Shown here piece by piece: positions 5,623 through 50,345 of a stretch of 64,000 nt of DNA (the stretch's first letter is position 1; every line of letters starts with the position of its first letter). The stretch is from the sequence record PZ154895.1. One strand, given 5' to 3'. Both the position numbers and the translations under genes were made by a program. A model generated the notes under the pieces. It had not been told where the DNA came from, searched no databases, and saw only the letters and a list, made by a program, of their open reading frames with translations. This DNA is from a phage.

Positions 5623-6627
5623 ATGTTTAAAAAGTATAGCAGTCTTGAAAATCATTACAATTCTAAATTCATTGAAAAACTTTACAGTTTAGGATTGACT
5701 GGCGGCGAATGGGTAGCTCGTGAAAAGATTCATGGCACAAATTTCTCATTGATTATTGAGCGTGATAAAGTAACTTGTGCTAAACGAACTGGTCCTATTC
5801 TTCCTGCTGAAGATTTCTTTGGGTATGAAATTATTTTGAAGAATTATGCTGATTCCATTAAAGCAGTACAAGATATTATGGAAACTTCAGCGGTTGTATC
5901 TTATCAAGTTTTTGGCGAATTCGCTGGACCTGGCATTCAGAAGAATGTCGATTATGGTGATAAAGATTTTTATGTATTTGACATTATTGTTACTACCGAA
6001 AGTGGTGATGTAACTTATGTCGATGATTATATGATGGAATCATTCTGTAATACATTCAAATTTAAAATGGCTCCACTTTTGGGTCGTGGTAAATTTGAAG
6101 AGCTGATTAAATTGCCAAATGATTTAGATTCTGTCGTCCAGGATTATAATTTTACGGTAGACCATGCTGGATTAGTTGATGCAAATAAATGCGTTTGGAA
6201 TGCTGAAGCAAAAGGCGAAGTATTTACCGCTGAAGGATATGTATTGAAACCTTGTTATCCTTCTTGGCTGCCTAATCGCAATCGTGTAGCCATCAAATGC
6301 AAGAACTCTAAATTTAGTGAAAAGAAAAAGTCTGATAAGCCTATTAAAGCTAAAGTTGAGTTGTCAGAAGCTGATAATAAATTGCTGGGAATTTTAGCTT
6401 GTTACGTTACACTGAACCGAGTAAATAACGTTATTTCTAAAATTGGTGAAATTGGTCCAAAAGATTTTGGAAAGGTGATGGGACTAACGGTTCAAGATAT
6501 TTTGGAAGAAACTTCTCGCGAAGGTATTACTCTAACTCAAGCAGATAATCCTTCTTTGATTAAAAAGGAATTAGTTAAAATGGTACAAGATGTACTTCGT
6601 CCGGCTTGGATTGAATTGGTAAGTTAA
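5623..6627 (+). CDS. rnlB: RNA ligase 2
   Basis: 334 aa; ligase lysine-adenylation motif KIHGTN; size as T4 Rnl2. Confidence 0.9.
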
Positions 6628-6633
6628 ATAAAA

Positions 6634-6651
6634 AGGGACCTTTTGGTCCCT
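6634..6651. terminator. bidirectional intrinsic terminator between rnlB and gene 24
   Basis: hairpin agggacc-tttt-ggtccct flanked by A-run and T-run, between convergent genes. Confidence 0.7.
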
Positions 6652-6656
6652 TTGTT

Positions 6657-7940
6657 TTATTCATCAACGATAATTTTTGGTAATTTAACACCTAATAAAA
6701 CAGACAAATCTGAACGACCCGCCATTTTATCCATGTCTCCACCATCAATTATTCTTGCTTCTTTTTCATCTTTTGCTACAGTGTAAGGATTTGCAGATAA
6801 AGCATATCTAACCAATAAACCGATAGATGGTTGTAAGCTTTCTGGATCAACTACAACTTTAAATGCACCTACATGTTCAGGGTCATCTAAGTCAAGACCT
6901 TCTGTATACGGAGCATAGAAAATTGATCCGACAATTTCTTTTTCACCAATATTTTCTACTACGCCAACGATTACATAATCTAATGGGCTGTTAGTATCGC
7001 AATAAAGCGGTAAACCATTAGCTAAGAACCCATAGGCATTTTGTGAAAGATATTTATCATCTTCTGGTTTATGTTTTAACCAACCTGATGCAGCAAGAAT
7101 CGCAGCGGCACGAGCTGAAGCAACACAGAACGTTGCTGTATAAGTTGATTCTTTTTGGATATGTGAAACCATTTCACATACCATTCGGTATAATGAACGA
7201 CCAGCTTCAGGTGCAGATGCATAACTCAAATCAATGAATCCAGTATCAGTAATTCCTGTAACTTTATAGCGTTTTGATACTGTAATCAAAGATTGCAGAA
7301 TATCTTTATTGATTTCATCCGCCATTTCAGTTGCAAGCAAATCTTCCAAGAAATTAGGAGCATCGAATCCATTTGCTTCTAAATCTTGTGCTAATTCAAC
7401 TGTAATGCCAGTTTTAAGTTTACGAGATTTAACTGCGGTTTGCCATTTATTAATCTGGAATCTAGCATCAGCAATTTCGCTATCAGAGCTTTCAAATTTG
7501 CTCGTTGACGCTGCATCAGAAAATAGACGAACCTTTAAAAGAACAATTGCAATCTGAAGAGCTAATTCTAAATCGCTTTCTTCAATGGTAGCAAATGGTG
7601 TATCTTCTAATACTTTATAAACGATATTATTATATTTGAATAAATCGCCTTTATTGAGAGTTAATTTAGACTCTTCTGTTAATTCTGTGATTTGTTCTCG
7701 GTCTACATACCCAGCTTCGCCAGCGTAAGTAGCACCAGTTTTAAACGTAAATTCGTTATCTGGGTTAAGGTATTTGATACCATAAAAAGCAGCAACAGGT
7801 TGATTAGTTCTTTGCGTTGCTACAATGTCAGAATATATTAATTTAGTGGTAGCGCGAGTCAAAGCAACGAGATTTGGGCGACCGATTGAGTTGCTATTCG
7901 TTGTGGTTGATTCGCGCAGAAGTTCGTTGATTTTAGCCAT
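6657..7940 (-). CDS. 24: gp24 head vertex protein
   Basis: 427 aa; gp23-like fold, size and position as T4 gp24. Confidence 0.9.
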   Translation of the reverse strand: MAKINELLRESTTTNSNSIGRPNLVALTRATTKLIYSDIVATQRTNQPVAAFYGIKYLNPDNEFTFKTGATYAGEAGYVDREQITELTEESKLTLNKGDLFKYNNIVYKVLEDTPFATIEESDLELALQIAIVLLKVRLFSDAASTSKFESSDSEIADARFQINKWQTAVKSRKLKTGITVELAQDLEANGFDAPNFLEDLLATEMADEINKDILQSLITVSKRYKVTGITDTGFIDLSYASAPEAGRSLYRMVCEMVSHIQKESTYTATFCVASARAAAILAASGWLKHKPEDDKYLSQNAYGFLANGLPLYCDTNSPLDYVIVGVVENIGEKEIVGSIFYAPYTEGLDLDDPEHVGAFKVVVDPESLQPSIGLLVRYALSANPYTVAKDEKEARIIDGGDMDKMAGRSDLSVLLGVKLPKIIVDE

Positions 7941-11172: not shown

Positions 11173-11180
11173 TATTTATA
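11173..11180 (-). promoter_or_regulatory. late promoter TATAAATA for gene 22
   Basis: exact motif on minus strand upstream of gene 22 start. Confidence 0.6.
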
Positions 11181-11814
11181 ACGCTTTTTTCATGGCCTCT
11201 GCGAGAGCCATATAGGCGTCATCGGCACTTGTATCGGCTTCCGCCGTCTGTGATTCGGTAATTTCCTTAGGAGTTACCCATGCATCTGGAGCACTTGGAC
11301 CCCATACTGCATCAACACCTACAGTTAATTTGAATCCTTCGTTTACGATACGATAACCTTTATTTGTGTCAGTCAATGAACCTAATCCACGAGAAGAAAC
11401 TCCTGGAATCCATCCGGCACGAATATTAGCTGCTAATTTATCTCCAGGACCGTGGTCACCTTCAATAACACGAGCTCGTCCGTATACGTCATTTCCTTTC
11501 CACCACATATCTTCTATAATGATAGCGGCTTGCATCGGGTCAACATTAGCGCGTGGAGGATGATTTAATTCTCCGAGAGCTTGTTTAGTTAAAACTTGCT
11601 CATTAATATAGTCTTTTACCGCTTTTTCTAATATGCGTTTTGGATAAAGACGTTTATTTCTATTGACGACTTCTGCTTGCATGAATATTCCTTCGATGTA
11701 TAAACCCGGTTTTAAACCTAAGTCTTTTCCATCGTGGGATTCAAGCATTGGCACACCATCAATAATTTCGCCAGGTTGACCCCAAGTTTCAATTAGTAAT
11801 TGGGGTTCATTCAT
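11176..11814 (-). CDS. 21: gp21 prohead core protease
   Basis: 212 aa; T4 synteny and size. Confidence 0.9.
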   Translation of the reverse strand: MNEPQLLIETWGQPGEIIDGVPMLESHDGKDLGLKPGLYIEGIFMQAEVVNRNKRLYPKRILEKAVKDYINEQVLTKQALGELNHPPRANVDPMQAAIIIEDMWWKGNDVYGRARVIEGDHGPGDKLAANIRAGWIPGVSSRGLGSLTDTNKGYRIVNEGFKLTVGVDAVWGPSAPDAWVTPKEITESQTAEADTSADDAYMALAEAMKKAL

Positions 11815-39328: not shown

Positions 39329-40053
39329 ATGAAACTAATCTTTTTAAGTGGTGTAAAGCGTAGTGGAAAAGATACTACTGCAGATTTTATCATGAATAAT
39401 TATTCTGCAGTTAAATATCAACTTGCTGGTCCTATTAAAGATGCATTGGCTTATGCATGGGCTGTATTTGCAGCAAACACTGACTATCCTTGCTTAACTC
39501 GTAAAGAGTTTGAAGGAATTGACTATGATCGTGAGACTAATTTGAATTTGACTAAATTAGAAGTAATTACGATTATGGAACAAGCATTTTGCTATCTTAA
39601 TAGTAAAAGCCCAATTAAAGGCGTGTTTGTTTTTGATGACGAAGGAAAAGAATCAGTTACTTTCGTAGCATTTAACAAGATTGCTGACGTTATAAATAAT
39701 ATTGAAGATCAATGGTCAATCCGTCGTCTGATGCAAGCCCTAGGTACGGATTTGATTGTTAATAACTTCGACCGCATGTATTGGGTAAAATTATTTGCTT
39801 TAGATTATCTTGATAAATTTAACTCAGGTTATGATTATTATATCGTTCCTGATACTCGTCAAGATCATGAAATGGATGCGGCTAGGGCGATGGGTGCTAC
39901 AGTAATTCATGTAGTTCGTCCTGGTCAAAAATCCAATGATACTCATATTACAGAAGCTGGATTGCCAATTCATGATGGCGATTTAGTAATTACAAACGAC
40001 GGTTCTCTTGAAGAACTTTTTTCTAAAATTAAAAATACACTAAAGGTACTATA

Positions 40054-40054: not shown

Positions 40055-40751
<697 letters not shown>

Positions 40752-40754
40752 TTT

Positions 40755-40797
40755 CACAAAGTTGTTTACATGCTGATGAGGTAGTGATACTATTACC
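40755..40797 (+). promoter_or_regulatory. T4-type early promoter (-35 GTTTAC 40764-40769, extended -10 TGATACTAT)
   Basis: consensus motifs at correct spacing upstream of the CTS gene. Confidence 0.7.
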
Positions 40798-40823
40798 TCA
40801 TCAAAATTAATTAGGAAAATAAA

Positions 40824-41081
40824 ATGAAAACTTTCAAAGAGTTTGCTACAAAAACTACTATCACTGAATCTTCACACGGTATGGAAGTAAAGCTTGGAAT
40901 GGCTTTAGCTGAAGCTGAGCGTCTTTTATCTCGTATTAAAGAACTTGCTGCTGCAGTCGATCCTTCATCTTTTAAAGGAGACCAAACTAAAGTTAAAGCA
41001 CTTTTAGCATTATGCTCCGATGCAGGAGAAATTGCTAAAAATGGTTCTAAGATGAAGAAACGATTAGAAGATTTAAAATAA
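40824..41081 (+). CDS. internal-protein-like, capsid targeting sequence (CTS) bearing protein
   Basis: 85 aa; N-terminus MKTFKEFATK resembles the T4 IP capsid-targeting leader; ipI-locus position next to 57B. Confidence 0.55.
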   Translation: MKTFKEFATKTTITESSHGMEVKLGMALAEAERLLSRIKELAAAVDPSSFKGDQTKVKALLALCSDAGEIAKNGSKMKKRLEDLK

Positions 41082-41084
41082 TTT

Positions 41085-41127
41085 CACAAAGTTGTTTACA
41101 GAAGGGTAGTAGTGTGATACTATTACC
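41085..41127 (+). promoter_or_regulatory. T4-type early promoter (-35 GTTTAC 41094-41099, -10 TGATACTAT)
   Basis: near-duplicate of the promoter at 40755. Confidence 0.7.
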
Positions 41128-41151
41128 CTATCAACTACCGAGGAGAATAAA

Positions 41152-41337
41152 ATGAAACGTTGTGAATTAATTCGAAATGTTGCTATTGCAATTTCTGCTT
41201 CTGCATTTAGCTTTTCAATGTTTGTTGGATTTATATGTGGATTATTAACTACAGCAGAAAATGTGTTTTCACTTGTAGTAGCATTTTTAATTGGTTTAAT
41301 TGCTATCGTTATGGATAAAATTTCTAAAGGTGAATAA
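41152..41337 (+). CDS. small membrane protein (2 predicted TM helices)
   Basis: 61 aa, two long hydrophobic segments; GAGGAG SD. Confidence 0.45.
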   Translation: MKRCELIRNVAIAISASAFSFSMFVGFICGLLTTAENVFSLVVAFLIGLIAIVMDKISKGE

Positions 41338-41738
41338 TGAACGTTGAATACTATGTATATGCGGATTACGAAAATAATCCATCTAAAGATGAAGATAATC
41401 GTTTAGGTGTAGATGCTTTCGATTCCCCTGCAGCGGCATGGCAATGGGTTGAAAGAACCGATATTCCTTACCGTTATATTGAAGTGGTTGACCACGCAGG
41501 AAACAAGTATCCTAAGGAAGCATATGTTCCTTCCGGGAAGGTAAATTTCCTTTTGTTTGCAGGTGATAATTATTATCCACGTGGTGGGTATACTGATTTA
41601 ATTGCGAAAGCCTCCACTGAAGATGAACTTCGTGACATTATCAAAGAAAATGAAAACAAACCGATGTGTGGTTCTAATCGCTTTGATTGGTGGCAAATTG
41701 TAAATGCCAATACGCACACTATTGTTGATGAAGGTTGA
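41337..41738 (+). CDS. hypothetical protein
   Basis: 133-aa ORF, TAATG overlap with upstream ORF. Confidence 0.5.
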   Translation: MNVEYYVYADYENNPSKDEDNRLGVDAFDSPAAAWQWVERTDIPYRYIEVVDHAGNKYPKEAYVPSGKVNFLLFAGDNYYPRGGYTDLIAKASTEDELRDIIKENENKPMCGSNRFDWWQIVNANTHTIVDEG

Positions 41739-42028
41739 TAATGATTCTTTATGCGAAAGTATCATCCATTGAAAATGGATATAAATATGATCAAGAAGCA
41801 GCTAAAGCCTTGATTGATGATTATGGCATTTTAACATATTTTGAAGTTGAAAAGGTTTACATTGACCGTTCATCTTCTCAAGTTAAATTAGTGAAGGAAG
41901 ATCGTAAATTTAATACAGTAAATTTTGATTTCTTTATTGAAACAGAAAAAGGTCCTCTTGAATATGATATTTTCAAGAATCCTTTGGGTCTTGAATGCAT
42001 CGTAAATATGTATTATCATAAATGGTAA
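41735..42028 (+). CDS. hypothetical protein
   Basis: 97-aa ORF overlapping upstream stop. Confidence 0.5.
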   Translation: MIMILYAKVSSIENGYKYDQEAAKALIDDYGILTYFEVEKVYIDRSSSQVKLVKEDRKFNTVNFDFFIETEKGPLEYDIFKNPLGLECIVNMYYHKW

Positions 42029-42125
42029 ATATGCTTTAAGAATTATTTGTTATTATTAACTCATATCGCACTGATTAATACCCTCTATCATCAAGGGTTC
42101 TTGCTTAAGAGCCTTTGTTAATAAT

Positions 42126-42198
42126 TGGGAATTAGCCAAGTTGGTAAGGCACTGGATTTTGATTCCAGGATGCAAAGGTTCGAGTCCTTTATTCCCAG
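42126..42198 (+). tRNA. tRNA-Gln (anticodon UUG)
   Basis: manual cloverleaf: 7-bp acceptor tgggaat/attccca, anticodon loop ttTTGat, T-arm GGTTCGAGTCC. Confidence 0.75.
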
Positions 42199-42199
42199 C

Positions 42200-42286
42200 G
42201 CGAGAATGGTCAAATTGGTAAAGGCACAGCACTTAAAATGCTGCGGAATGATTTCCTTGTGGGTTCGAGTCCCACTTCTCGCACCA
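42200..42286 (+). tRNA. tRNA-Leu (anticodon UAA), type II
   Basis: acceptor gcgagaa/ttctcgc + CCA, anticodon loop ctTAAaa, long variable arm. Confidence 0.75.
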
Positions 42287-42291
42287 AATTT

Positions 42292-42365
<74 letters not shown>

Positions 42366-42411
42366 ATTTATGACTCGTCGTGAGACGCTCAGTTCTTTAT
42401 TAGGGACTGAT

Positions 42412-43020
42412 ATGCATTTTTATCTTTATAAAATAACAAATAAAATTAATAATAAAATTTATATTGGTGTGCATTCTACCGAAAATTTAGATGATGGATA
42501 TATGGGTTCTGGTAAATTATTAAAAAGAGCCCAAGACAAGTATGGTATAGAAAATTTTTCTAAAGAAATATTAGAGTATTTTGATGATAAAGAATCTATG
42601 CTTGAAGCCGAGAAAAATATTGTTACAGAAGAGTTTTTAAATAGACCAGATGTGTATAATTTAAAACTTGGCGGTGAAGGTGGATGGGACCACATAAATA
42701 ATTATCCTATGACAGATCAGCAACGCGAATTAATTTCATTGGGTGTTAAAAAGGCACATTCTAACGGAAAATTAAAAGGATGGTCTTCAAATGGATTAAT
42801 GAAGAATGGCTTTGCTGGTAAAACTCATTCTCAAGAAGCTAAACGTAAAATAGCAAAAGCAAACGAAGCAAAAGTTTCTGCGGATGAAAGAAAAAGAAGA
42901 ATAGAAATTTCTAAATTATATGATTTTTCTAAGCGTGGTGAATTATCTAAATATGCTAAGCATATTGGCGTAAGTCATACTCAAGCAAAAAGAATTCTAA
43001 ATCAAATTAACAATATATAA
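42412..43020 (+). CDS. segB: GIY-YIG homing endonuclease SegB (alternative start 42370)
   Basis: GIY-YIG motif HFYLYKITNKINNKIYIGVH; embedded in the tRNA cluster as in T4. Confidence 0.75.
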   Translation: MHFYLYKITNKINNKIYIGVHSTENLDDGYMGSGKLLKRAQDKYGIENFSKEILEYFDDKESMLEAEKNIVTEEFLNRPDVYNLKLGGEGGWDHINNYPMTDQQRELISLGVKKAHSNGKLKGWSSNGLMKNGFAGKTHSQEAKRKIAKANEAKVSADERKRRIEISKLYDFSKRGELSKYAKHIGVSHTQAKRILNQINNI

Positions 43021-43026
43021 ATATTT

Positions 43027-43116
43027 GGAGGCGTGGCAGAGTGGTTTAATGCACCGGTCTTGAAAACCGGCAGTCGCTCCGGCGACTCATAGGTTCAAAT
43101 CCTATCGCCTCCGCCA
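43027..43116 (+). tRNA. tRNA-Ser (anticodon UGA), type II
   Basis: acceptor ggaggcg/cgcctcc + CCA, anticodon loop ctTGAaa, long variable arm. Confidence 0.7.
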
Positions 43117-43121
43117 GTTTT

Positions 43122-43197
43122 GCTGATTTAGCTCAGTAGGTAGAGCAACTCACTTGTAATGAGAAGGTCGGCGGTTCGATCCCGTCAATCAGCACCA
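43122..43197 (+). tRNA. tRNA-Thr (anticodon UGU)
   Basis: acceptor gctgatt/aatcagc + CCA, anticodon loop ctTGTaa, T-arm GGTTCGATCC. Confidence 0.7.
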
Positions 43198-43198
43198 A

Positions 43199-43273
43199 GG
43201 CCCTGTAGCTGGAAGGTTCAAGCAAGCGACTCATAATCGCCAGATGGTGGTTCAATTCCACCCAGGGCCACCA
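43199..43273 (+). tRNA. tRNA with CAU anticodon (Ile-lysidine type or Met)
   Basis: acceptor ggccctg/cagggcc + CCA, anticodon loop ctCATaa; T4 carries an Ile tRNA of this type. Confidence 0.6.
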
Positions 43274-43282
43274 AATTAATTT

Positions 43283-43369
43283 GGGGAGTTATCCCGTAGA
43301 GGTAGCGGTGTGGACTGTAAATTCATTGTCATTGCGACTCGGGTGGTTCGACTCCATCACTCCCCACCA
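43283..43369 (+). tRNA. tRNA-Tyr (anticodon GUA), type II
   Basis: acceptor ggggagt/actcccc + CCA, anticodon loop ctGTAaa, long variable arm; manual fold, less certain. Confidence 0.5.
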
Positions 43370-43373
43370 ATTT

Positions 43374-43448
43374 GGATGTGTAGCTCAATGGCAGAGCGAT
43401 CGCCTGTTAAGCGATTGGTTATAGGTTCGAATCCTATCACGTCCGCCA
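43374..43448 (+). tRNA. tRNA-Asn (anticodon GUU)
   Basis: acceptor ggatgtg/cacgtcc + CCA, perfect anticodon stem atcgc/gcgat with loop ctGTTaa. Confidence 0.6.
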
Positions 43449-43452
43449 AATC

Positions 43453-43528
43453 CGAGGCATAGCTCAGAAGGAAGAGCAAGGACCTTCTAAGTCCTAGGTC
43501 GTAGGTTCGATCCCTACTGCCTCGACCA
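43453..43528 (+). tRNA. tRNA-Arg (anticodon UCU)
   Basis: acceptor cgaggca/tgcctcg + CCA, anticodon stem aggac/gtcct with loop ctTCTaa, T-arm GGTTCGATCC. Confidence 0.7.
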
Positions 43529-43544
43529 ATTAAGTGAGGAAAAT

Positions 43545-43895
43545 ATGAAAGGTAATGTTTATTTAGTAGTTCATGATTTAACATTCTATTTTAATCACAA
43601 TGACACTGTTATTTCTGAACGTGTAATTAATTTGCTTTATCAGCATGCAGATTATGTTTATGTCGAAAACGAATATGGTCATTGGCAATTTCTCAAAAAT
43701 CGTTCATTTGGTTTAGATGGTTACGAATACTTTGAACGTAAAGACCTTTTAGATAAAATTCCGTTATCTACACAATATCAAAATCATAAGTCTTTACATA
43801 AATGCCGTCAAATTCGAAATGCTGAATCTGCGTATGAAGCAATTGATTTATGGCGTAAACGCCGTGAACAGATTGATGCTTTAAAAGAATACTAA
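43545..43895 (+). CDS. hypothetical protein
   Basis: 116-aa ORF starting 17 nt after tRNA-Arg with GAGGA SD. Confidence 0.5.
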   Translation: MKGNVYLVVHDLTFYFNHNDTVISERVINLLYQHADYVYVENEYGHWQFLKNRSFGLDGYEYFERKDLLDKIPLSTQYQNHKSLHKCRQIRNAESAYEAIDLWRKRREQIDALKEY

Positions 43896-44229
43896 GAAAC
43901 CGGGTAGCTACCGGTAAGTCGTCGGACTGATGTTCCCTGCGTAAGGACTGGTCTTAATAAATCTTTACGATTTGTTAATATCCCCTTACATCACAGCAGA
44001 AACGGCGCACCGAATTATCGATTCGAGGAAATATCTTTGCCGTAAGCCGAGTAGCGTTTTTGACGGAACGTTCGGATATGGTCGAGATATGGCCTTTTAA
44101 AAATATTGAGTAGCGTCAACTGCTTAATAACCGGGTTCGAATCCCGGCGTTTCGTACAAACACTTGCCTTAGCAGGTGGAACCCCGACAAGGTTGCCGCA
44201 AGGCTTAGCCCCAACCGAAAGGTTGGGGC
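43896..44229 (+). ncRNA. structured small-RNA locus (T4 rnaC/rnaD-like species 1 and 2 candidate)
   Basis: about 330 nt without a credible ORF, tRNA T-arm-like CCGGGTTCGAATCCCGG, ends in a strong intrinsic terminator; T4 has stable RNAs at the equivalent position. Confidence 0.35.
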
Positions 44230-44234
44230 TTTTT
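44208..44234 (+). terminator. intrinsic terminator ending the structured-RNA locus
   Basis: hairpin gccccaacc-gaaa-ggttggggc followed by TTTTT. Confidence 0.75.
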
Positions 44235-44236
44235 AG

Positions 44237-44244
44237 TATAAATA
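44237..44244 (+). promoter_or_regulatory. late promoter TATAAATA for the CTS gene at 44285
   Basis: exact motif about 40 nt upstream of the ATG. Confidence 0.55.
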
Positions 44245-44284
44245 TAGTAGTATATTAAATCTACGAATTAAAACAGGAAATAAG

Positions 44285-44758
44285 ATGAAATCATATGCTC
44301 AATTTTTAAATGAAGCGGTGTTAAATGAAGCATCTAGCACCGAAATTCAAGCTGTCGCAAAAGCAGCCATTGCAGCGGGTAAATATTCCTATAAAGATGC
44401 TTCTGACGAATCACGATTCCAATTTGCTCGCGACATGAAAGCAGAAGGATTTACGGGAAATGCGGTTAGTATGGCCTGGAAAAGTTTAGTTGCTACTGGT
44501 GCTGCTTTTGCAAAGGCTTCGGGTAAACCTGCTCCTAAAGCAGATCCTAAAGCTACACAAGAAAAAAATATTGTTAAAGGAATTATCGCTAAGTATGAAG
44601 CTATCCTTAAAGAGCTTTTAGTAATCAAAACCGAAGGCCAAAAGTTAGCCCGTGCCTATAGTTTCAAAGATAATCCACATGTTCACTCTCTTGAGTATGT
44701 TGAAGACATCCAAAAAATTATTAAAGACCGCATTTGGTCTGCTAAACAAATCAAATAA
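44285..44758 (+). CDS. internal-protein-like CTS-bearing protein
   Basis: 157 aa; N-terminus MKSYAQFLNE|AVLNE|A with two L-x-E protease-type sites; own late promoter and terminator. Confidence 0.55.
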   Translation: MKSYAQFLNEAVLNEASSTEIQAVAKAAIAAGKYSYKDASDESRFQFARDMKAEGFTGNAVSMAWKSLVATGAAFAKASGKPAPKADPKATQEKNIVKGIIAKYEAILKELLVIKTEGQKLARAYSFKDNPHVHSLEYVEDIQKIIKDRIWSAKQIK

Positions 44759-44766
44759 CATTCTTA

Positions 44767-44793
44767 ACCCCGACCAAAAGGTTGGGGCTTTTT
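44767..44793 (+). terminator. intrinsic terminator after the CTS gene
   Basis: hairpin ccccgacc-aaaa-ggttgggg followed by T-run. Confidence 0.7.
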
Positions 44794-44919
44794 GGTATCT
44801 AGGCCTTTCCGCGCCTCTCTAGGCATCATTTAGTTTATACACTTTATAATATATTATCCTATCCTTTAATTGCCCATCCCTTCCCTAGAATTCCCTAAAA
44901 CTTTTAAAAAAAAATTTTT

Positions 44920-44962
44920 CACAAAACTGTTTACATCTCTGTTCTTCCGTGGTACTATACAA
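44920..44962 (+). promoter_or_regulatory. T4-type early promoter (-35 GTTTAC 44929-44934, -10 TGGTACTATAC)
   Basis: consensus motifs; A/T-rich UP region. Confidence 0.7.
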
Positions 44963-45001
44963 CTATCAACTACTGATACAGAAAACAACTTGGAGAATGA
45001 A

Positions 45002-45265
45002 ATGGATAATTACGGCGAACTGTTCAACTTCTTTATGAAATGTGTTTCAGAAGATTTCGGTCGTACAGTGAATGATATTAAAGTTATCGGTCCTGACCAT
45101 CCGATGTTTGAAACTTACGCAGTAATGGGTAATGAAGACGGTCAGTGGTATACTGTAAAGGTTGTGATTAACATGTTCACAGCAGAAGGTTATGATAAAC
45201 TGTCTTCTAAAGTTTATCATGATAACGACGAAATCGCAGAAGAATATTTCAATAATATGAAATAA
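45002..45265 (+). CDS. hypothetical protein (e.8 position)
   Basis: 87 aa from MDNYGELF; the ORF-track N-terminal extension overlaps the early promoter so the start was moved to the ATG after the GGAG SD. Confidence 0.5.
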   Translation: MDNYGELFNFFMKCVSEDFGRTVNDIKVIGPDHPMFETYAVMGNEDGQWYTVKVVINMFTAEGYDKLSSKVYHDNDEIAEEYFNNMK

Positions 45266-45297
45266 GTTTACACAGGCTCATGATTGAGATATTATGA
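45260..45297 (+). promoter_or_regulatory. T4-type early promoter with overlapping inverted repeat
   Basis: -35 GTTTAC 45266-45271, -10 GATATTAT; inverted repeat caggctcat/atgagcctg spans the -10. Confidence 0.55.
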
Positions 45298-45320
45298 GCC
45301 TGTAATTTGAGGAGAACATT

Positions 45321-45656
45321 ATGAAACGTAACTTTAGTAAAGCTTTTTGTAATCGAAATTATTATCCCGAAGAGCTTTTTGAATCTAAGGAATTTAAAGA
45401 GTTTAACGAACGTTCTCAAAACATGCCTGTGCAGTGGGTATTGGATTATGCCAATCGTATCTTTGAAGGCGTGCGGGATATTTGTCCTGATGATGAAGCT
45501 CCTTATTTTAAAAAGGCTTGGGAACTTGCTAACCAAGCATATATCAATGCTTTAGAATTTTCTAAAGGCACTGACGATGATTTTACTTTATTGGCTATCA
45601 ATGATGCCGTTATCGAAGCCATTGACATCTTTATCGATGAGCTAGACGAAGAATAA
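45321..45656 (+). CDS. hypothetical protein (e.7 position)
   Basis: 111-aa ORF with GAGGAG SD after an early promoter. Confidence 0.5.
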   Translation: MKRNFSKAFCNRNYYPEELFESKEFKEFNERSQNMPVQWVLDYANRIFEGVRDICPDDEAPYFKKAWELANQAYINALEFSKGTDDDFTLLAINDAVIEAIDIFIDELDEE

Positions 45657-45690
45657 GTTTACAATCTATTAGAAACGTGATATTATCTAA
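45650..45690 (+). promoter_or_regulatory. T4-type early promoter
   Basis: -35 GTTTAC 45657-45662, -10 GATATTAT. Confidence 0.6.
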
Positions 45691-45713
45691 TTATATCAAC
45701 CTAAGGAAATACT

Positions 45714-46307
45714 ATGAACACACTGAAGAAAATTGTTGAGTTTATTCGCACTAAACTTGGTTCTGCTATGGCTAAAAATTTATCTGTTGAAGAACAGTAT
45801 ACTGCTGCAGCAGCAAAACTACTTGATAAAATTAAAGACCTAAAAACTGCTTCTGTTAAATCTATTAATGAAGAAAAACGTATTCGTGAACTTGTTGTTG
45901 AAAAGAATCGACAGGCCGAATCAAAAGAGCGTGAAATTCGTAAACTTCTTTCCGAAGGTCAAGATGTAACAATGCATGCTAAACTTGGTTTACTATATCG
46001 TCGAACAGCTGAGCAGTTGACTACTAAAGCTGACGGTTATGCTGAAATGCGAATTGAAATCGCCAAGAAAGTAGTTGAGTTAGATGATGCTCGCCAAGAA
46101 CTTGCAGTTAAATTGGAATATATCCGTGAAACTCGTGCAGCAAATGCCCTTGGAATTAGTACTGCCGATGATGTAGTTGAAATCGCAGCGCTGACTAAGG
46201 TTGATATTGAAGATACCCTTGCTCGAGTTGAAACCTTTAACGGTAATATTTCCGGGGTTGAAACTACCTCTGCCGATGTCCAGGAATATATTAATTCTCT
46301 GAAATAA
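45714..46307 (+). CDS. coiled-coil protein (e.6 position)
   Basis: 197 aa, almost entirely heptad-like charged helix; followed by a terminator hairpin. Confidence 0.55.
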
Positions 46308-46312
46308 TGATA

Positions 46313-46328
46313 AGGGGCTTCGGCCCCT
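46313..46328 (+). terminator. terminator-like hairpin after the coiled-coil gene
   Basis: hairpin aggggcttcggcccct; downstream T-run weak. Confidence 0.45.
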
Positions 46329-46348
46329 ATTACTTGGAGTAAATAGGA

Positions 46349-46957
46349 ATGAAAATGCAAAGTGATTTCAATTCAATGTTTGAAGAGTTCCAAAGACAGG
46401 TTGATGTTCCAGATCAATTATTAAATGCTCTTAAACGTATGGCAGAAGGACGTAATTACTATTGGGGGTCTTCATATGAAACTGATGAAAGTCTTTCTGG
46501 AAGATTTTCTAGAGGTAAAAAGTCTTTAATACGTCCTGGAATACTTATTAACAGTATTGAATCAATTCATTCATTGACGTGTGATTTTGATGTTGAATTT
46601 ACTGATTTCATTTCTCCTGAATGGACAGTATGTTATTTAAACGACGATTTTGATTATCTCGGTGTTTATAGTTTAAGTGACGCATGGTTTAAACGTAACT
46701 TACAAAAGTCAAATTTATTCTATATTGATACTACAGTAAAATTTCAGGGAAAGAAATATTTCTTTACTCTTATAGTTGATTCTGAAACGAAACATGAAAA
46801 TAAACGTATTCTTAGTAAAAGGAATATCTTGAATATTGTTGATGATCTTTTTGATAAATTCGTGGAAAATCCTAGTTTTGAAAGCGATTTATTACTAGAA
46901 AAATTTGTTAAGGAATGTAGAGAATATGTCAAAGCCATCACTATACCTTCCAAGTAA
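46349..46957 (+). CDS. hypothetical protein, C-terminal FVKECR motif (e.5 position)
   Basis: 202-aa ORF; C-terminus shares a motif with the three downstream membrane proteins. Confidence 0.5.
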   Translation: MKMQSDFNSMFEEFQRQVDVPDQLLNALKRMAEGRNYYWGSSYETDESLSGRFSRGKKSLIRPGILINSIESIHSLTCDFDVEFTDFISPEWTVCYLNDDFDYLGVYSLSDAWFKRNLQKSNLFYIDTTVKFQGKKYFFTLIVDSETKHENKRILSKRNILNIVDDLFDKFVENPSFESDLLLEKFVKECREYVKAITIPSK

Positions 46958-47318
46958 ACCTTTGAAGTATGAATTAAAGCGCCAGCTAATTTCTACTGAT
47001 GTATTAATAGGTCCTGTTATACTCATATCATTTGTAATTCTATTGATTATTGGAGGTGTTTTAGATGTTATGACTGATATTGATTCTGGCGAAATACTTG
47101 TGTTAATGCTAATTCTTCCATTAATAGTTCCACTTTTATTAGTACCTGTAAATTGGATAGGATATTGGTATCAAGGAAGACATTATCGTAAACGTGTACG
47201 TGATTGGAAAGCACAGTGTAAAAAGATTAAAAAGGAACACCAGCTTAAACTTGCTGAGTATGAATTTAATGAAATTATGAAATTTGTTAAGGAATCACGA
47301 TGCAAAAGCCAAAACTAA
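46905..47318 (+). CDS. small membrane protein, paralog family (e.4 position)
   Basis: 137 aa; two hydrophobic helices then basic tail ending FVKESRCK. Confidence 0.5.
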   Translation: MLRNVENMSKPSLYLPSKPLKYELKRQLISTDVLIGPVILISFVILLIIGGVLDVMTDIDSGEILVLMLILPLIVPLLLVPVNWIGYWYQGRHYRKRVRDWKAQCKKIKKEHQLKLAEYEFNEIMKFVKESRCKSQN

Positions 47319-47662
47319 ATAAAGTCAAATATTCGTTCCCCGAGGCACTATTAATTCTTGCTGTGTCAGTATTTGCAGCTCTTGCTGGTAGTCTTATTGG
47401 ATTGTTAATTGACTGTATTATTTTAAACATCGATGGTTCAGCAATTATAACAGAGGTTTGGAGTGAACTTCGTTTTACTATAGCGATTACATTATTTTCA
47501 TTCTTTGGTACCATGCTATATTTTCATTATGATAATTTTAAAATAAATTGGCAAAGAAAAAAGGATTACAAAATACAATTAAAGGAATATAATAACTACA
47601 TGTCTTATATTGAAAAAGAATCAATGGAAGAGTTTGTGAGTGATTGTAGGAAAATTAAATGA
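47300..47662 (+). CDS. small membrane protein, paralog family (e.3 position)
   Basis: 120 aa; two hydrophobic helices; C-terminus FVSDCRKIK. Confidence 0.5.
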   Translation: MQKPKLNKVKYSFPEALLILAVSVFAALAGSLIGLLIDCIILNIDGSAIITEVWSELRFTIAITLFSFFGTMLYFHYDNFKINWQRKKDYKIQLKEYNNYMSYIEKESMEEFVSDCRKIK

Positions 47663-48147
47663 TTTTAAAAACTCGTTGGTATGATTTAGATGATGGGGAC
47701 GATGGCATTTCAGTTGATAGAGTTGACTGGAATGGCTGTTCCGAAGATATGAAAAATTTGCTGATTAGGGAGTTTAGAATGGGATATCAACCAGTTAAGC
47801 CATCTACTGCAACAGATGATAAATTCGTGTGTATTCATAATGGTCGCGCTAAATTAACGAACGCTGATTGGTTCACAGATAAGATTATGATTCTGTGGTA
47901 TATTATTAGTTTTCCTGTGACATCATTTGTATTTTGCTTCTTTGGAGAAAGTCCAGTAGGCAGAACGGGAGATTGGATTCTTTTAATCATACTTGTTAAT
48001 ATTTTTACAGCAGCAGTACTATCAGGAATATGGTGCGTGTTCATTGAAATGCCATGGCGTTTACGTAGGCAGCAAAAGATTTTTGATGAAAAGAAATATA
48101 CTCAAAATTTAAATAATTTTATCACCGAATGCAGGAAATTAAAATGA
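47659..48147 (+). CDS. small membrane protein, paralog family (e.2 position)
   Basis: 162 aa; two hydrophobic helices; C-terminus FITECRKLK. Confidence 0.5.
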   Translation: MILKTRWYDLDDGDDGISVDRVDWNGCSEDMKNLLIREFRMGYQPVKPSTATDDKFVCIHNGRAKLTNADWFTDKIMILWYIISFPVTSFVFCFFGESPVGRTGDWILLIILVNIFTAAVLSGIWCVFIEMPWRLRRQQKIFDEKKYTQNLNNFITECRKLK

Positions 48148-48584
48148 AAACATTATCAGCTGGTATTATCTTTATGACAGAAGATAAAGATTTATTCATG
48201 GGACGGGTTACTGGTTCTCGTAAGCCTGGAATGATGGCACATCGCTGGGATATTCCAAAAGGCCGTGTAGAAAATTCTGATTTGAGCGCACTAGATGCAG
48301 CACGAAGAGAATGCTTAGAAGAGACCGGTTTTAGCAATTATAATCCAGACCTTCTAGAAGACCTAGGTGTATTTAAATATTCTAGTAATAAAGACTTACA
48401 GTTGTTTTATTATACGATTCCAGTAGAGCATGAGATGTTTAGAAATTGCCATTGTGAGTCTTATTTTGAAAATAAAGATGGCGTTATGATTCCAGAAATG
48501 GATGCTTTTGCTCTTATTCCTCGTACTCAGTGGCAATATGTGATGGGTCCTTCACTTTACCGAATAATGAACAGCCTCTTTTAA
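48129..48584 (+). CDS. nudE: Nudix hydrolase NudE (e.1)
   Basis: 151 aa; Nudix box GRVENSDLSALDAARRECLEETGF; immediately upstream of e. Confidence 0.8.
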   Translation: MQEIKMKTLSAGIIFMTEDKDLFMGRVTGSRKPGMMAHRWDIPKGRVENSDLSALDAARRECLEETGFSNYNPDLLEDLGVFKYSSNKDLQLFYYTIPVEHEMFRNCHCESYFENKDGVMIPEMDAFALIPRTQWQYVMGPSLYRIMNSLF

Positions 48585-48587
48585 TTT

Positions 48588-48608
48588 ATAAATACCTTCT
48601 ATAAATAC
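48588..48608 (+). promoter_or_regulatory. tandem late promoters (two TATAAATA copies) for e
   Basis: TATAAATA at 48588-48595 and 48601-48608 upstream of the lysozyme ATG. Confidence 0.65.
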
Positions 48609-48620
48609 TTAGGAGGTATT

Positions 48621-49109
48621 ATGAATATATTTGAAATGTTACGTATAGATGAAGGTCTTAGACTGACTTTATACAAAGACACTGAAGGCTTTTGGACGAT
48701 TGGCATAGGCCATTTAGTAACAAAGAACCCGTCTTTAGCCGTAGCTAAAGCTGAACTTGACAGAATGATCGGACGTAAATGCAACGGTACAATTACCCTT
48801 GATGAGGCTGAAAAGCTATTTAATGAAGACGTTGATAAAGCCGTTCGCGGAATCTTGGGTAATGCTAAACTTAAACCGGTATATGATTCTTTAGATGCAG
48901 TTCGTCGATGTGCGTTGGTCAATATGGTCTTCCAAATGGGCGTAGCAGGCGTCGCTGGTTTTACTAATTCTCTTCGTATGCTTCAACAGAAACGTTGGGA
49001 CGAAGCGGCAGTAAATCTAGCCCAATCTAAATGGTATCGTCAGACACCTAATCGCGCGAAACGCGTAATCTCAACATTTAAAACAGGAACTTGGAAAGCG
49101 TATATATGA
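48621..49109 (+). CDS. e: endolysin (T4-type lysozyme)
   Basis: 162 aa; [15 protein letters not shown]...[13 protein letters not shown] recognised as T4 lysozyme family, roughly 80 percent identical to T4 E as recalled. Confidence 0.95.
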
Positions 49110-49387
49110 AAACATATAGTGAATTTTTATCAGAATCTATTCTTAACGAAGCTACTGACACATTTGCAACTAAGTTAGGTGCAGCTTTGGTTGAAGCCGA
49201 AAGTCTATTAGCACGTATTTCTGAACTTGCTAGTAAGATAGATACTCGCAAATTTGAACGTACCAGCGATATCGTTAAGCTTGAAGCCTTGTTGCGTATG
49301 TGCGATAAACCAGAAGAAATCGCTAAGAACGGCTCGCTAATGAAACAACGTCTTGAAAAATATATTTCAGGCGCTTCAGAAAAATAG
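49106..49387 (+). CDS. internal-protein-like CTS-bearing protein (IPII-like size)
   Basis: 93 aa from [10 protein letters not shown]|SILNE|A; ATGA overlap with e stop; position between e and denV where T4 has ip genes. Confidence 0.55.
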
Positions 49388-49422
49388 TGTTTACTTCCTC
49401 CAAGGACTTTGATACTATACAT
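49383..49422 (+). promoter_or_regulatory. T4-type early promoter upstream of denV
   Basis: -35 GTTTAC 49389-49394, -10 TGATACTATAC. Confidence 0.7.
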
Positions 49423-49445
49423 TCATCAACTACTTGGAGGAAGTT

Positions 49446-49862
49446 ATGACTCGTATCAATTTAACACTTGTTTCTGAACTGACCGACCAACATCTTATGG
49501 CTGAGTATCGTGAATTGCCGCGTGTTTTTGGTATAGTTCGTAAACATGCGGCAAATGGTAAGCGGGTTAAAGATTTTAAAATATCTTCCGAGTTTATTTT
49601 AGGCTCTGGTCATGTTACGTTCTTTTACGATAAGTTAGAATTTTTGCGAAAGCGCCAATCAGACATTATAACGGAATGCTTAAAACGTGGGTTTAGTATA
49701 AAAGATACTGAAGTTCCTGACATCAGCGATATTCCAGCAGAATGGAAAAACGATTATAATCCATGCAAATCAGCTATTAAATTGAGTCAACAACGACTCG
49801 ATGAAAAAATTTTAATGAAGCCACACTGGTACAAGTATTACGGCAAAAATATTTACATTTAA
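49446..49862 (+). CDS. denV: endonuclease V, pyrimidine-dimer DNA glycosylase
   Basis: 138 aa from [29 protein letters not shown], recognised as T4 EndoV family; GGAGG SD. Confidence 0.92.
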
Positions 49863-49871
49863 AGGAAACAT

Positions 49872-50345
49872 ATGAAAACATATCAAGAATTTATCACTGA
49901 AGCAGCTATTAATTCTCAAATTATTGCTGAATCTTTTACTGATCTTTTGAAATTTAAAAAAGGACAGAAAATTACTGCTGTATTAGATGATGGTACAGAA
50001 GTTGAGATGGATGTACAAGGATATAATTATGCAGTAGATGGAAAACTGTATAATAAATCTCATGCTAAATTTGATTCATTTGACGACTTTGTTAATACAG
50101 TTGAAGATGAAAAAACTCGTAGATCCATTGCAACTGGCGATGCTAAGGTTCTTATGGCACACGGTCATGAACGTATTCGCGCTAAACAGAATAAAATGGG
50201 CGAAGATAATTTCGCATTAGTTGGTTATCAATCTGGTAAGCAAACTTATGGCTATCAGCGTACTGCTACCATGTATAATAAAAATGGTAAAATCGCTTTC
50301 GTGAATAGCAAAGGCTCTATTCAGTACGTCAAATCATTCAAATAA
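49872..50345 (+). CDS. internal-protein-like CTS-bearing protein
   Basis: 157 aa; N-terminus MKTYQEFITE|AAINSQIIAE|S closely matches the canonical T4 IP leader MKTYQEFIAE. Confidence 0.55.
   Translation: MKTYQEFITEAAINSQIIAESFTDLLKFKKGQKITAVLDDGTEVEMDVQGYNYAVDGKLYNKSHAKFDSFDDFVNTVEDEKTRRSIATGDAKVLMAHGHERIRAKQNKMGEDNFALVGYQSGKQTYGYQRTATMYNKNGKIAFVNSKGSIQYVKSFK

What the first reader, a model, noticed from the sequence alone, without database searches (positions are those of the whole stretch)
40824..50345. Four dispersed genes with an internal-protein capsid-targeting leader; number and placement differ from the T4 ipI/ipII/ipIII layout
ORFs at 40824, 44285, 49106 and 49872 all start with a T4 capsid-targeting-sequence-like leader ([40 protein letters not shown]) followed by L/I-x-E motifs of the kind cut by the gp21 prohead protease. 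Their mature parts share no obvious similarity with each other. In T4, internal proteins are injected with the DNA, and IPI* inhibits the GmrSD restriction system. This phage therefore probably packages a different set of injected effectors, including 157-aa proteins at positions where I recall no ip gene in T4 (between rnaC and e.8, and after denV). These are strong candidates for uncharacterised injected anti-defence proteins.
Basis: partly seen in the sequence, partly recalled or inferred. Interest (0 to 1): 0.7.

Follow-up and report, generated by a model that had tools for sequence, protein, structure and literature searches.

The report
T-even phage internal (injected) protein genes
Four genes in this T4-like phage carry the leader that loads proteins into the phage head for injection; three belong to named internal-protein families (Ip5, an Ip5 paralogue, Ip4), and the fourth belongs to a widespread family that every database record calls "hypothetical" and that lies outside the two classical internal-protein loci.

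Summary
The window is a Tequatrovirus of the RB51/AR1/ime09 type. The four ORFs and their leaders are real: the leader pattern occurs 4 times against 0.2 expected, always at an ORF start.

- 40824-41081 is Ip5, 95-99% identical to Ip5 of RB51, Bas37 and T2.
- 49872-50345 is Ip4, 100% identical to T2 IpIV.
- 49106-49387 is an Ip5 paralogue (49% identity, same PHROG). RefSeq annotates it as "internal head protein".
- 44285-44758 is "hypothetical protein" or unannotated in every record inspected, out of 512 phage records that match. It keeps the leader and an L-x-E cleavage site even in very divergent homologues. It has its own conserved late promoter. It is a 559-bp cassette absent from T4, flanked by a duplicated terminator hairpin, at a third locus (rnaC-e.8).

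The same four-gene layout exists in phage ime09. The window also encodes a gp21 prohead protease 99.5% identical to T4's.

Packaging and cleavage are well supported by inference. An anti-defence role rests on analogy: Ip1-3 block GmrSD variants and Bas37_0260 blocks McrBC. The only direct hint is unremarked transposon data in which Ip5 mutants are depleted 4-fold on E. coli CFT073.

This is mostly known biology, with one modestly new candidate.

The parts
40736..40829 (+). Upstream copy of a ~95-nt direct repeat (period 330 nt) holding a T4 early-type promoter (TTTACA-17-TACTAT at 40765-40793), a stem-loop, the Shine-Dalgarno sequence and ATGAAA
   Evidence: homologous to the T4 57B-ipI intergenic region
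40824..41081 (+). ip5: internal protein Ip5, in the ipI slot after 57B. The leader MKTFKEFATKTTITE resembles that of T4 IPI. Predicted cleavage after E15 gives a 70-aa mature protein of pI 9.2
   Evidence: 95% identical to RB51 Ip5, 98.8% to Bas37_0261, ~98% to T2 ip5; phrog_3499 E 2e-49
41066..41157 (+). Downstream copy of the same repeat (promoter at 41095-41123), which now drives trna.4
43895..44156 (+). rnaD (43895-44011) and rnaC (44018-44156), the left landmark of the third locus
   Evidence: blastn against T4 rnaD 87% and rnaC 98.6%
44204..44244 (+). Copy 1 of a 36-nt repeat, which is an intrinsic-terminator hairpin (44207-44230 plus a T-run), overlapping the T4 late promoter TATAAATA at 44237-44244, 48 nt upstream of the ATG
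   Evidence: the promoter is conserved in AR1, RB51, teqdroes, ime09 and Bas37
44285..44758 (+). Candidate internal protein of the RB32ORF132c / phrog_2280 family. The leader is MKSYAQFLNE|AVLNE|ASS. Predicted mature protein: 142 aa, pI 9.6, all-helical, two domains joined by a Pro/Lys-rich linker
44763..44798 (+). Copy 2 of the terminator-hairpin repeat (89% identical). T4 has a single copy at this position, so 44240-44798 is a 559-bp insertion or deletion relative to T4
48587..48607 (+). Two late promoters (TATAAATA at 48587 and 48600) upstream of gene e. They are the likely source of late transcripts for e, the ip5 paralogue, denV and ip4
   Evidence: inference: no strong + strand terminator lies between them and the ip genes
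48621..49109 (+). Gene e (lysozyme), 162 aa. Its last codons and stop were remodelled by the downstream ip cassette; the stop overlaps the ip start as ATGA
49106..49387 (+). Ip5 paralogue (93 aa) inserted between e and denV. The leader is [10 protein letters not shown]|SILNE|AT. Predicted mature protein: 78 aa, pI 8.1
   Evidence: 49% identical to Ip5, phrog_3499 E 1e-46. Identical copies occur in ime09, slur07, JS09, ST0 and others, annotated 'internal head protein'. Absent from RB51 and AR1
49872..50345 (+). ip4: internal protein Ip4 (Pfam DUF7412, phrog_3155), 9 nt after denV. The leader is MKTYQEFITE|AAINSQIIAE|SF. Predicted mature protein: 137 aa, pI 9.3
   Evidence: 100% identical to T2 IpIV and teqdroes Ip4. 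The 15 nt upstream of the ATG are identical to those of T4 ipII and ipIII. E10 and E20 are invariant across 13 homologues
11179..11814 (-). Gene 21, the prohead protease that would cleave the leaders. The core and portal genes 68, 67 and 20 lie next to it
   Evidence: tblastn: gp21 99.5% identical to T4 gp21 over 212 aa; gp20 99.4%; gp68 99%; gp67 100% over 47 aa

Best explanation
These are four internal-protein (IP) genes of a T-even phage. Each protein starts with a capsid-targeting sequence: an aromatic residue at position 4 and Phe at position 7, followed by L/I-x-E. This sequence binds the protein to the scaffolding core while the prohead assembles. The gp21 protease then removes the leader after the Glu. 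The small basic mature protein stays among the packaged DNA and is injected with it. Three of the genes belong to named IP families: Ip5 in the ipI slot, an Ip5 paralogue fused onto the end of gene e, and Ip4 after denV. The fourth (44285) belongs to a family that databases call 'hypothetical' but that has every sequence hallmark of an IP. It lies at a third locus, as a cassette with its own late promoter between duplicated terminator hairpins. The genes move as cassettes by recombination between repeated flanking regulatory sequences and the shared leader-coding DNA, which explains why number and placement vary between phages. The most likely role of the mature proteins is to inhibit host nucleases that attack the incoming modified DNA (type IV restriction systems), each one specific for a different enzyme. 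Shown here: gene identities, leader and cleavage motifs, promoters, repeats, and the cognate protease. Inferred: packaging, cleavage and injection of these particular proteins, most weakly for 44285, and the anti-defence role.
For: Identity: (Ip5 95-99%, Ip4 100% to T2 IpIV, paralogue E 6e-24).
Leader statistics. The residues experimentally required in T4 IPIII (4 and 7 for targeting, 8 and 10 for processing; PMC9026906) are Y/F4 and F7 in all four proteins, and L/I8 plus E10 in three. Ip5 resembles T4 IPI in having only the distal ITE site.
Protease and core: essentially identical to T4.
44285 family: M1, F7 and E15 are invariant in 8 sequences. Klebsiella and Yersinia homologues have shorter leaders that end exactly at the aligned L-x-E (MKFKEFLAE|ASS). 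Homologues at the edge of detection, among only 13 hits in 1.84 billion representatives (some matching Serratia and Cronobacter T4-like phages), still begin M-x-x-F/Y-x-x-F-L/V-x-E. The leader is disordered in the AlphaFold model while the body is folded. The late promoter TATAAATA is conserved in six phages. The mature pI is 9.6, like T4 IPs.
Cassette architecture: consistent with the PeSL-like elements described at IP loci (PMC2839356).
Function by analogy: Ip1, Ip2 and Ip3 each block one GmrSD variant (PMC12373910). A CTS-bearing protein in the ipI locus of Bas37 blocks McrBC (bioRxiv 10.1101/2025.11.20.689424).
Direct hint: transposon insertions in the Bas37 Ip5 orthologue are depleted on E. 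coli CFT073 (log2FC -2.09, adjusted p shown as 0.00000) but not on CFE299 or CFE303. That the sheet is the CFT073 one is inferred from sheet order.
Against: I found no virion proteomics or N-terminal sequence for any of the four proteins.
The 44285 family lies outside the two canonical IP loci, and the literature states that IP genes are absent elsewhere in T-even genomes.
The 44285 orthologue in Bas37 is non-essential and showed no conditional phenotype on CFT073 or CFE303.
ip4-10 gave no reproducible inhibition of eight active GmrSD systems.
T2, with identical Ip4 and near-identical Ip5, is restricted by CT596 GmrSD and by the UTI89 enzyme.
Only 44285 has its own late promoter within 150 nt. 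Ip5 has an early-type promoter, and the other two depend on read-through from the e late promoters.
Confidence: 0.75

Rival explanations
1. The proteins are packaged, but their main job is structural or physical: basic DNA-associated filler proteins that help core assembly, neutralise charge during packaging, or aid DNA ejection. They would not be specific anti-defence effectors.
For: All predicted mature forms are small and basic (pI 8.1-9.6). In T4, Lys residues of IPs contact DNA phosphates, and IPIII-/IP0 mutants show head-assembly aberrations. No target was found for ip4-10. Ip5 and the 44285 orthologue are dispensable on K-12.
Against: Every IP whose function has been solved (Ip1, Ip2, Ip3, Bas37_0260) is a specific type IV restriction inhibitor. 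Extreme sequence turnover with only the leader conserved fits an arms race better than a generic physical role. Ip5 mutants show a host-specific defect on CFT073 only.
Confidence: 0.2
2. The 44285 ORF is not an internal protein. Its N-terminus merely resembles a CTS, for example as a relic of recombination with an ip gene, and the protein acts in the cytoplasm of the infected cell late in infection.
For: It lies outside both canonical IP loci. It is flanked by GC-rich terminator hairpins, not by the early-promoter/stem-loop repeats of the IP loci. No record inspected annotates it as an IP. It has no phenotype in HIDEN-SEQ on the hosts seen.
Against: A relic would decay. Instead, the aromatic-4 / Phe-7 / L-x-E pattern persists in homologues so divergent that the rest of the protein is barely alignable. 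The leader length varies, yet it always ends at an L-x-E followed by a small residue. Expression from a conserved late promoter matches the time of prohead assembly. In Bas37 and ime09, a second CTS-like ORF (MKTYAEFLTEAAK...) sits next to it, which suggests this locus regularly hosts such genes.
Confidence: 0.2
3. Ip5 and its paralogue are processed not only at the leader but also at two internal L/I-x-E sites. This would yield short internal peptides like those derived from gp67, gp68 and gp22, rather than one folded effector.
For: Both paralogues, only 49% identical, keep [LI]-x-E at residues 28-30 (LAE / LVE) and 38-40 (IKE / ISE). gp21 has very few cleavage determinants beyond L/I-x-E.
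Against: These motifs lie in a Leu/Glu-rich stretch where they can arise by chance, and I did not test their significance. The host-specific phenotype of Ip5 mutants on CFT073 suggests a folded, specific protein.
Confidence: 0.1

Closest known systems
T2 internal proteins IpIV and Ip5 (also in T6, RB15, RB70, RB51, ime09); the T-even ip polymorphism of Repoila et al. 1994
   Same: The window's 49872 protein is 100% identical to T2 IpIV, and the 40824 protein is ~98% identical to T2 ip5. They sit in the same loci: the ipI slot, and downstream of e and denV. They have the same flanking repeated promoter/stem-loop elements.
   Different: T2 lacks denV, the Ip5 paralogue and the 44285 gene, and has Ip7 next to Ip5. 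The window has one gene in the ipI slot and an extra Ip5 paralogue fused onto the end of e.
T4 IPI/IPI*, IPII and IPIII (GmrSD inhibitors)
   Same: The leader is the same, and for Ip4 so are the 15 nt upstream of the start codon. They share the L/I-x-E processing motif, small basic mature proteins, and a near-identical protease and scaffolding core. The Ip5 leader is of the long IPI type.
   Different: There is no similarity beyond the leader, no solved homologue, and the targets are unknown. CT596 GmrSD and the UTI89 enzyme restrict T2 despite its Ip4 and Ip5. ip4-10 were negative against eight GmrSD systems.
Bas37_0260, the CTS-bearing McrBC inhibitor in the ipI locus of phage KarlGJung (HIDEN-SEQ preprint)
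   Same: It is an IP with a CTS in a closely related phage that also carries Ip5 (98.8% identical) and the 44285 orthologue (98.7% identical).
   Different: The window has no homologue of this 77-aa protein; only Ip5 occupies the ipI slot.
PeSL promoter/stem-loop cassettes of T4-type phages (Arbiol et al. 2010; Comeau et al. 2014)
   Same: A single ORF is bracketed by direct repeats of a regulatory element, and the related genome (T4) keeps one copy of the repeat at the empty site. That is exactly the topology proposed for PeSL-mediated excision and insertion.
   Different: At 44285 the repeat is a GC-rich intrinsic terminator and the cassette brings a late promoter, not an early promoter with a stem-loop. 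At the ipI slot the repeat is the T4 early-promoter analogue already noted by those authors.

Membership tests
T-even internal proteins (IPs) | N-terminal capsid-targeting sequence, with targeting residues at positions 4 (aromatic) and 7 (Phe) | tested here: met
   F/Y4 and F7 in all four proteins. The requirement is taken from IPIII mutagenesis summarised in PMC9026906.
T-even internal proteins (IPs) | gp21 cleavage motif L/I-x-E at the end of the leader, followed by a small residue | tested here: met
   ITE|S; LNE|A and LNE|A; LSE|S and LNE|A; ITE|A and IAE|S. The sites are conserved in the Ip4 family (E10 and E20 invariant) and in the 44285 family (E15 invariant).
T-even internal proteins (IPs) | Cognate prohead protease and scaffolding core encoded by the same phage | tested here: met
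   gp21 99.5%, gp68 99%, gp67 100% (partial) and gp20 99.4% identical to T4.
T-even internal proteins (IPs) | Gene located in one of the two hypervariable IP loci (the ipI slot, or the e/ipII-ipIII region) with repeated early-promoter/stem-loop flanks | tested here: inconclusive
   Met for 40824, 49106 and 49872. Not met for 44285, which lies between rnaC and e.8 and is flanked by terminator hairpins. Location is a habit of the family rather than a mechanistic requirement.
T-even internal proteins (IPs) | Synthesis at the time of prohead assembly (late transcription) | tested here: inconclusive
   44285 has a conserved TATAAATA 48 nt upstream. 49106 and 49872 lie downstream of the e late promoters with no strong terminator between. 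40824 has only an early-type promoter within 150 nt; the nearest upstream late motif on the + strand is at 39691. No expression data.
T-even internal proteins (IPs) | Small, basic mature protein | tested here: met
   7.5-15.5 kDa, pI 8.1-9.6, against 8-20 kDa and pI 9.0-9.7 for T4 IPI*, IPII* and IPIII*.
T-even internal proteins (IPs) | Physically present in the mature head in processed form, and injected with the DNA | not testable with these tools
   No proteomic report was found for these proteins. Ip4 and Ip5 carry the name 'internal head protein' from the 1994 T-even work, which I could not read.
Type IV restriction (GmrSD/McrBC) inhibitors among IPs | Sequence or fold similarity of the mature part to IPI*, IPII, IPIII or Bas37_0260 | tested here: not met
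Type IV restriction (GmrSD/McrBC) inhibitors among IPs | Demonstrated relief of restriction by a defined enzyme | not testable with these tools
   Published tests of ip4-10 were negative. T2 is restricted by CT596 GmrSD and by the UTI89 enzyme. The only positive hint is the depletion of Ip5 insertions on CFT073.

The most novel reading that the evidence does not exclude
The rnaC-e.8 interval is a third internal-protein locus that has gone unrecognised. Its resident 157-aa family (phrog_2280; 512 phage records, 'hypothetical' or unannotated in every record inspected; also seen in Klebsiella, Yersinia, Serratia and Cronobacter T4-like phages) would be a packaged, gp21-processed, injected effector delivered from a late-promoter cassette. 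Its target would be a host defence other than the GmrSD variants tested so far. Separately, Ip5 may neutralise a defence present in uropathogenic E. coli CFT073.
Probability: 0.5. Interest if true: 0.45.

Novelty: new member of a known kind. Interest (0 to 1): 0.3.

Why it matters
Internal proteins act before any phage gene is expressed. Every one with a solved function blocks a type IV restriction enzyme, so they help set host range in T4-like phages used for therapy and biocontrol.

Ip4 and Ip5 are old names whose targets are still unknown. Tying Ip5 to a phenotype on CFT073 gives a concrete experiment.

Recognising the 44285 family as a likely IP would add a widespread, cross-genus member to the injected arsenal. 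It would also correct the view that IP genes occur only at two loci.

None of this changes the known mechanism. It extends a catalogue.

Tried and rejected
- **Pfam and NCBIfam:** only Ip4 matches a family (DUF7412). The other hits are below threshold and meaningless.
- **PDB sequence search:** nothing significant for three of the proteins.
- **Rfam on the tRNA region:** only tRNAs. rnaC and rnaD were located by blastn against T4 instead.
- **Literature:** searches for virion proteomics of these proteins, for 'RB32ORF132c' and for 'Ip4 Ip5' found nothing useful. Repoila 1994, Bair 2007 and Rifat 2008 are not held, so I could not check whether the 44285 family is among the 'more than 30 IP variants' attributed to Comeau 2007.
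- **Rejected idea:** I first thought Ip5 might counter the IPI*-resistant 'UT' GmrSD. That enzyme is from UTI89, not CFT073, and it restricts T2, which carries Ip5.
- **Apparent Ip4-IPII similarity:** 27.6% over 98 aa, but the E-value comes from a 14-sequence database and is driven by the identical leader. I do not treat it as homology.
- **HIDEN-SEQ sheets:** sheets S6 to S8 were not read for these genes. In S4, only the Ip5 row was seen.

Full report
**What the window is**

The 11-kb region matches about 1,200 phage records. The best matches are Tequatrovirus genomes (vB_Eco_EL, CrRp10, teqdroes, slur07, RB51, AR1) at 93-95% nucleotide identity in several pieces. Gene order follows T4 read on its minus strand: 1, 57A, 57B, [ip], trna.4-.2, tRNAs with a seg-type endonuclease, rnaD, rnaC, e.8-e.2, nudE, e, denV, vs.8.

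**Checking the observation**

The four ORFs are present as described. The motif MK[STA][YF]xxF occurs four times in all six reading frames of the 64 kb, and each occurrence is the first residue of one of these ORFs. A looser pattern finds the same four. Three hundred first-order Markov simulations gave a mean of 0.21 hits, and 0.01 when a nearby [LIM]-x-E was also required. Each leader carries one or two L/I-x-E sites within the first 20 residues.

One statement is wrong. The mature parts of the 40824 and 49106 proteins are homologous: 48.8% identity over 84 residues (E 6e-24), and both match phrog_3499 'internal head protein' end to end.

**What each gene is**

- **40824-41081 is Ip5.** It is 95% identical to RB51 Ip5, 98.8% to Bas37_0261 and about 98% to T2 ip5. 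It sits in the T4 ipI slot.
- **49872-50345 is Ip4.** It is identical in all 157 residues to T2 IpIV and teqdroes Ip4. It matches Pfam DUF7412 (E 6e-96) and phrog_3155.
- **49106-49387 is an Ip5 paralogue.** Identical copies occur in ime09, slur07, JS09, ST0 and many others. RefSeq calls it 'internal head protein', and one record calls it ip5. RB51 and AR1 lack it.
- **44285-44758 is a homologue of RB32ORF132c (phrog_2280, function unknown).** tblastn finds it in 512 phage records. Every one of the 60 records displayed lists it as 'hypothetical protein' or carries no annotation at that position.

Phage ime09 has all four genes in the same positions, so the layout is not unique to this window. 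T4 has none of the four mature proteins and no ip gene at two of the positions.

**Machinery**

The window also encodes gp21, the prohead protease, at 11179-11814 on the minus strand. It is 99.5% identical to T4 gp21. The core and portal proteins gp68, gp67 and gp20 are 99-100% identical to T4. T4 genetics summarised in PMC9026906 shows three things:

- The first 10 residues of IPIII suffice for packaging.
- Residues 4 and 7 carry the targeting signal, and residues 8 and 10 the processing signal.
- gp21 cuts after Glu in L/I-x-E.

All four window proteins have an aromatic residue at 4 and Phe at 7. Three have L/I at 8 and Glu at 10. Ip5, like T4 IPI, lacks the proximal site and has ITE further on. 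The predicted mature proteins are 7.5-15.5 kDa with pI 8.1-9.6, the same range as T4 IPI*, IPII* and IPIII*.

**The fourth gene in detail**

1. Eight family members of 38-99% identity keep M1, F7 and E15 invariant.
2. Klebsiella (Jiaodavirus) and Yersinia homologues have leaders of different length that still end at the aligned L-x-E: MKFKEFLAE|ASSDV and MLEYSEFLKELFCE|ASISDV.
3. A profile search of 1.84 billion representative proteins finds only 13 relatives. The four most divergent full-length ones begin MLKFNEFLAE|G, MINFSDFLNE|G, MKSFSSFLNE|G and MISFNEFVDGNLITE|S. The third of these clusters with proteins of Serratia phages Muldoon and SP1 and Cronobacter phage VP8; the other three come from unnamed assemblies. 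A relic leader would not survive that much divergence.
4. AlphaFold (pLDDT 75) predicts a disordered leader (residues 5-15 below 50), a confident three-helix N-terminal domain, a Pro/Lys-rich linker and a long helical hairpin.
5. A perfect T4 late promoter, TATAAATA, lies 48 nt upstream of the start codon. It is conserved in AR1, RB51, teqdroes, ime09 and Bas37.
6. Compared with T4, the gene is a 559-bp insertion in the rnaC-e.8 spacer. It is bracketed by two copies (89% identical) of a 36-nt intrinsic-terminator hairpin, of which T4 keeps one. The RB51 annotators had noticed 'a 34 bp imperfect direct repeat'.
7. The gene is syntenic in a Klebsiella Jiaodavirus.

Against this, Arbiol et al. 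state that IP genes are confined to two loci and absent elsewhere in T-even genomes. No record I inspected calls this protein an IP. I could not read Repoila 1994 or Comeau 2007 to check their lists.

**How the genes move**

The Ip5 gene is framed by a repeat of about 95 nt with a 330-nt period. The repeat contains an early-type promoter (TTTACA-17-TACTAT), a stem-loop, the ribosome-binding site and ATGAAA. This corresponds to the PeSL-like elements described at IP loci.

The Ip5 paralogue was inserted exactly at the end of gene e. The lysozyme is 162 rather than 164 residues, and its stop overlaps the ip start as ATGA. Downstream, the normal e-denV spacer resumes.

The 15 nt upstream of Ip4 and its first 24 coding bases (eight codons) are identical to those of T4 ipII and ipIII. 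The leader-coding DNA itself is therefore a recombination substrate.

**Function**

All IPs with a solved role inhibit type IV restriction. Ip1, Ip2 and Ip3 each block a different GmrSD (PMC12373910). Bas37_0260, a 77-aa CTS protein in the ipI locus of a close relative, blocks McrBC. It has no homologue in this window.

For the proteins that are present here, published tests are negative. ip4-10 gave no reproducible effect on eight active GmrSD systems. T2, which carries identical Ip4 and near-identical Ip5, is restricted by CT596 GmrSD and by the UTI89 enzyme.

There is one unremarked positive datum. In the HIDEN-SEQ tables for Bas37, the first resampling sheet is K-12 versus CFT073 by the sheet order listed. 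In that sheet:

- Insertions in bas37_0261 (Ip5) drop from a mean of 263 to 61 (log2FC -2.09, adjusted p shown as 0.00000).
- Insertions in the upstream gene 57B drop by log2FC -1.56.
- On CFE299 and CFE303, Ip5 insertions are neutral (-0.01).
- The authors do not mention this gene in their text.
- A polar effect on bas37_0260 would have the opposite sign, because 0260 mutants are depleted on K-12.
- The 44285 orthologue (bas37_0244) is non-essential, and neutral on CFT073 and CFE303.

**Verdict**

The packaging and processing interpretation is well supported by sequence, and is already the accepted annotation for three of the genes. The anti-defence role is a reasonable inference without a known target.

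The polymorphism of ip genes in number, content and position has been known since 1994, so the finding as framed is largely known biology. Two things are new in a modest sense. First, a widespread protein family annotated as 'hypothetical' is best read as an internal protein carried at a third locus on a late-promoter cassette. Second, there is a testable lead that Ip5 matters on CFT073.

Noticed in passing
L009 (Bas37/KarlGJung MZ501089) 6529-7092, minus strand; ime09 L007 4512-5075; absent from the window: A second CTS-like ORF (187 aa, MKTYAEFLTEAAKLPSE..., RB69ORF149c-like) sits directly next to the 44285 orthologue in Bas37 and ime09. HIDEN-SEQ classes it 'Essential' (1 of 48 TA sites hit), which is odd for an internal protein. 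The window lacks it.
   Followed up: partly
window 45714-46307 (e.6) and 46349-46957 (e.5): In the HIDEN-SEQ sheet inferred to be K-12 vs CFT073, the Bas37 orthologues of e.6 and e.5 are the strongest conditionally essential genes in the stretch I read (log2FC -6.49 and -3.62).
   Followed up: partly
window 48621-49109 / 49106: The lysozyme gene e ends two codons early (162 aa; ...TWKAYI instead of ...TWDAYKNL), because the Ip5-paralogue cassette replaced its last codons. The stop and start overlap as ATGA, which suggests translational coupling.
   Followed up: yes
window 40824-41081 and 49106-49387, residues 28-30 and 38-40: Both Ip5 paralogues keep two internal [LI]-x-E motifs (LAE/LVE and IKE/ISE) that fit the gp21 consensus. 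Whether they are cut, giving short internal peptides, is unknown.
   Followed up: no
window 42126-43528: The tRNA cluster has nine genes (Gln, Leu, Gly, Ser, Thr, Met-CAU which is T4 tRNA-Ile, Tyr, Asn, Arg). It is split by a 216-aa seg-type homing endonuclease at 42370-43020. Compared with T4, it lacks tRNA-Pro and has Tyr and Asn.
   Followed up: no
window 43545-43895: A 116-aa ORF (RB69ORF150c-like; absent from T4) lies between tRNA-Arg and rnaD. It is another small cassette in this hyperplastic region.
   Followed up: no
L008 (Klebsiella phage KpV477) 3841-4231: In KpV477 the homologue of the 44285 family appears split or truncated: two short annotated ORFs of 54 and 78 aa, where other Klebsiella phages have 177 aa. 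This may be a frameshift or decay.
   Followed up: no
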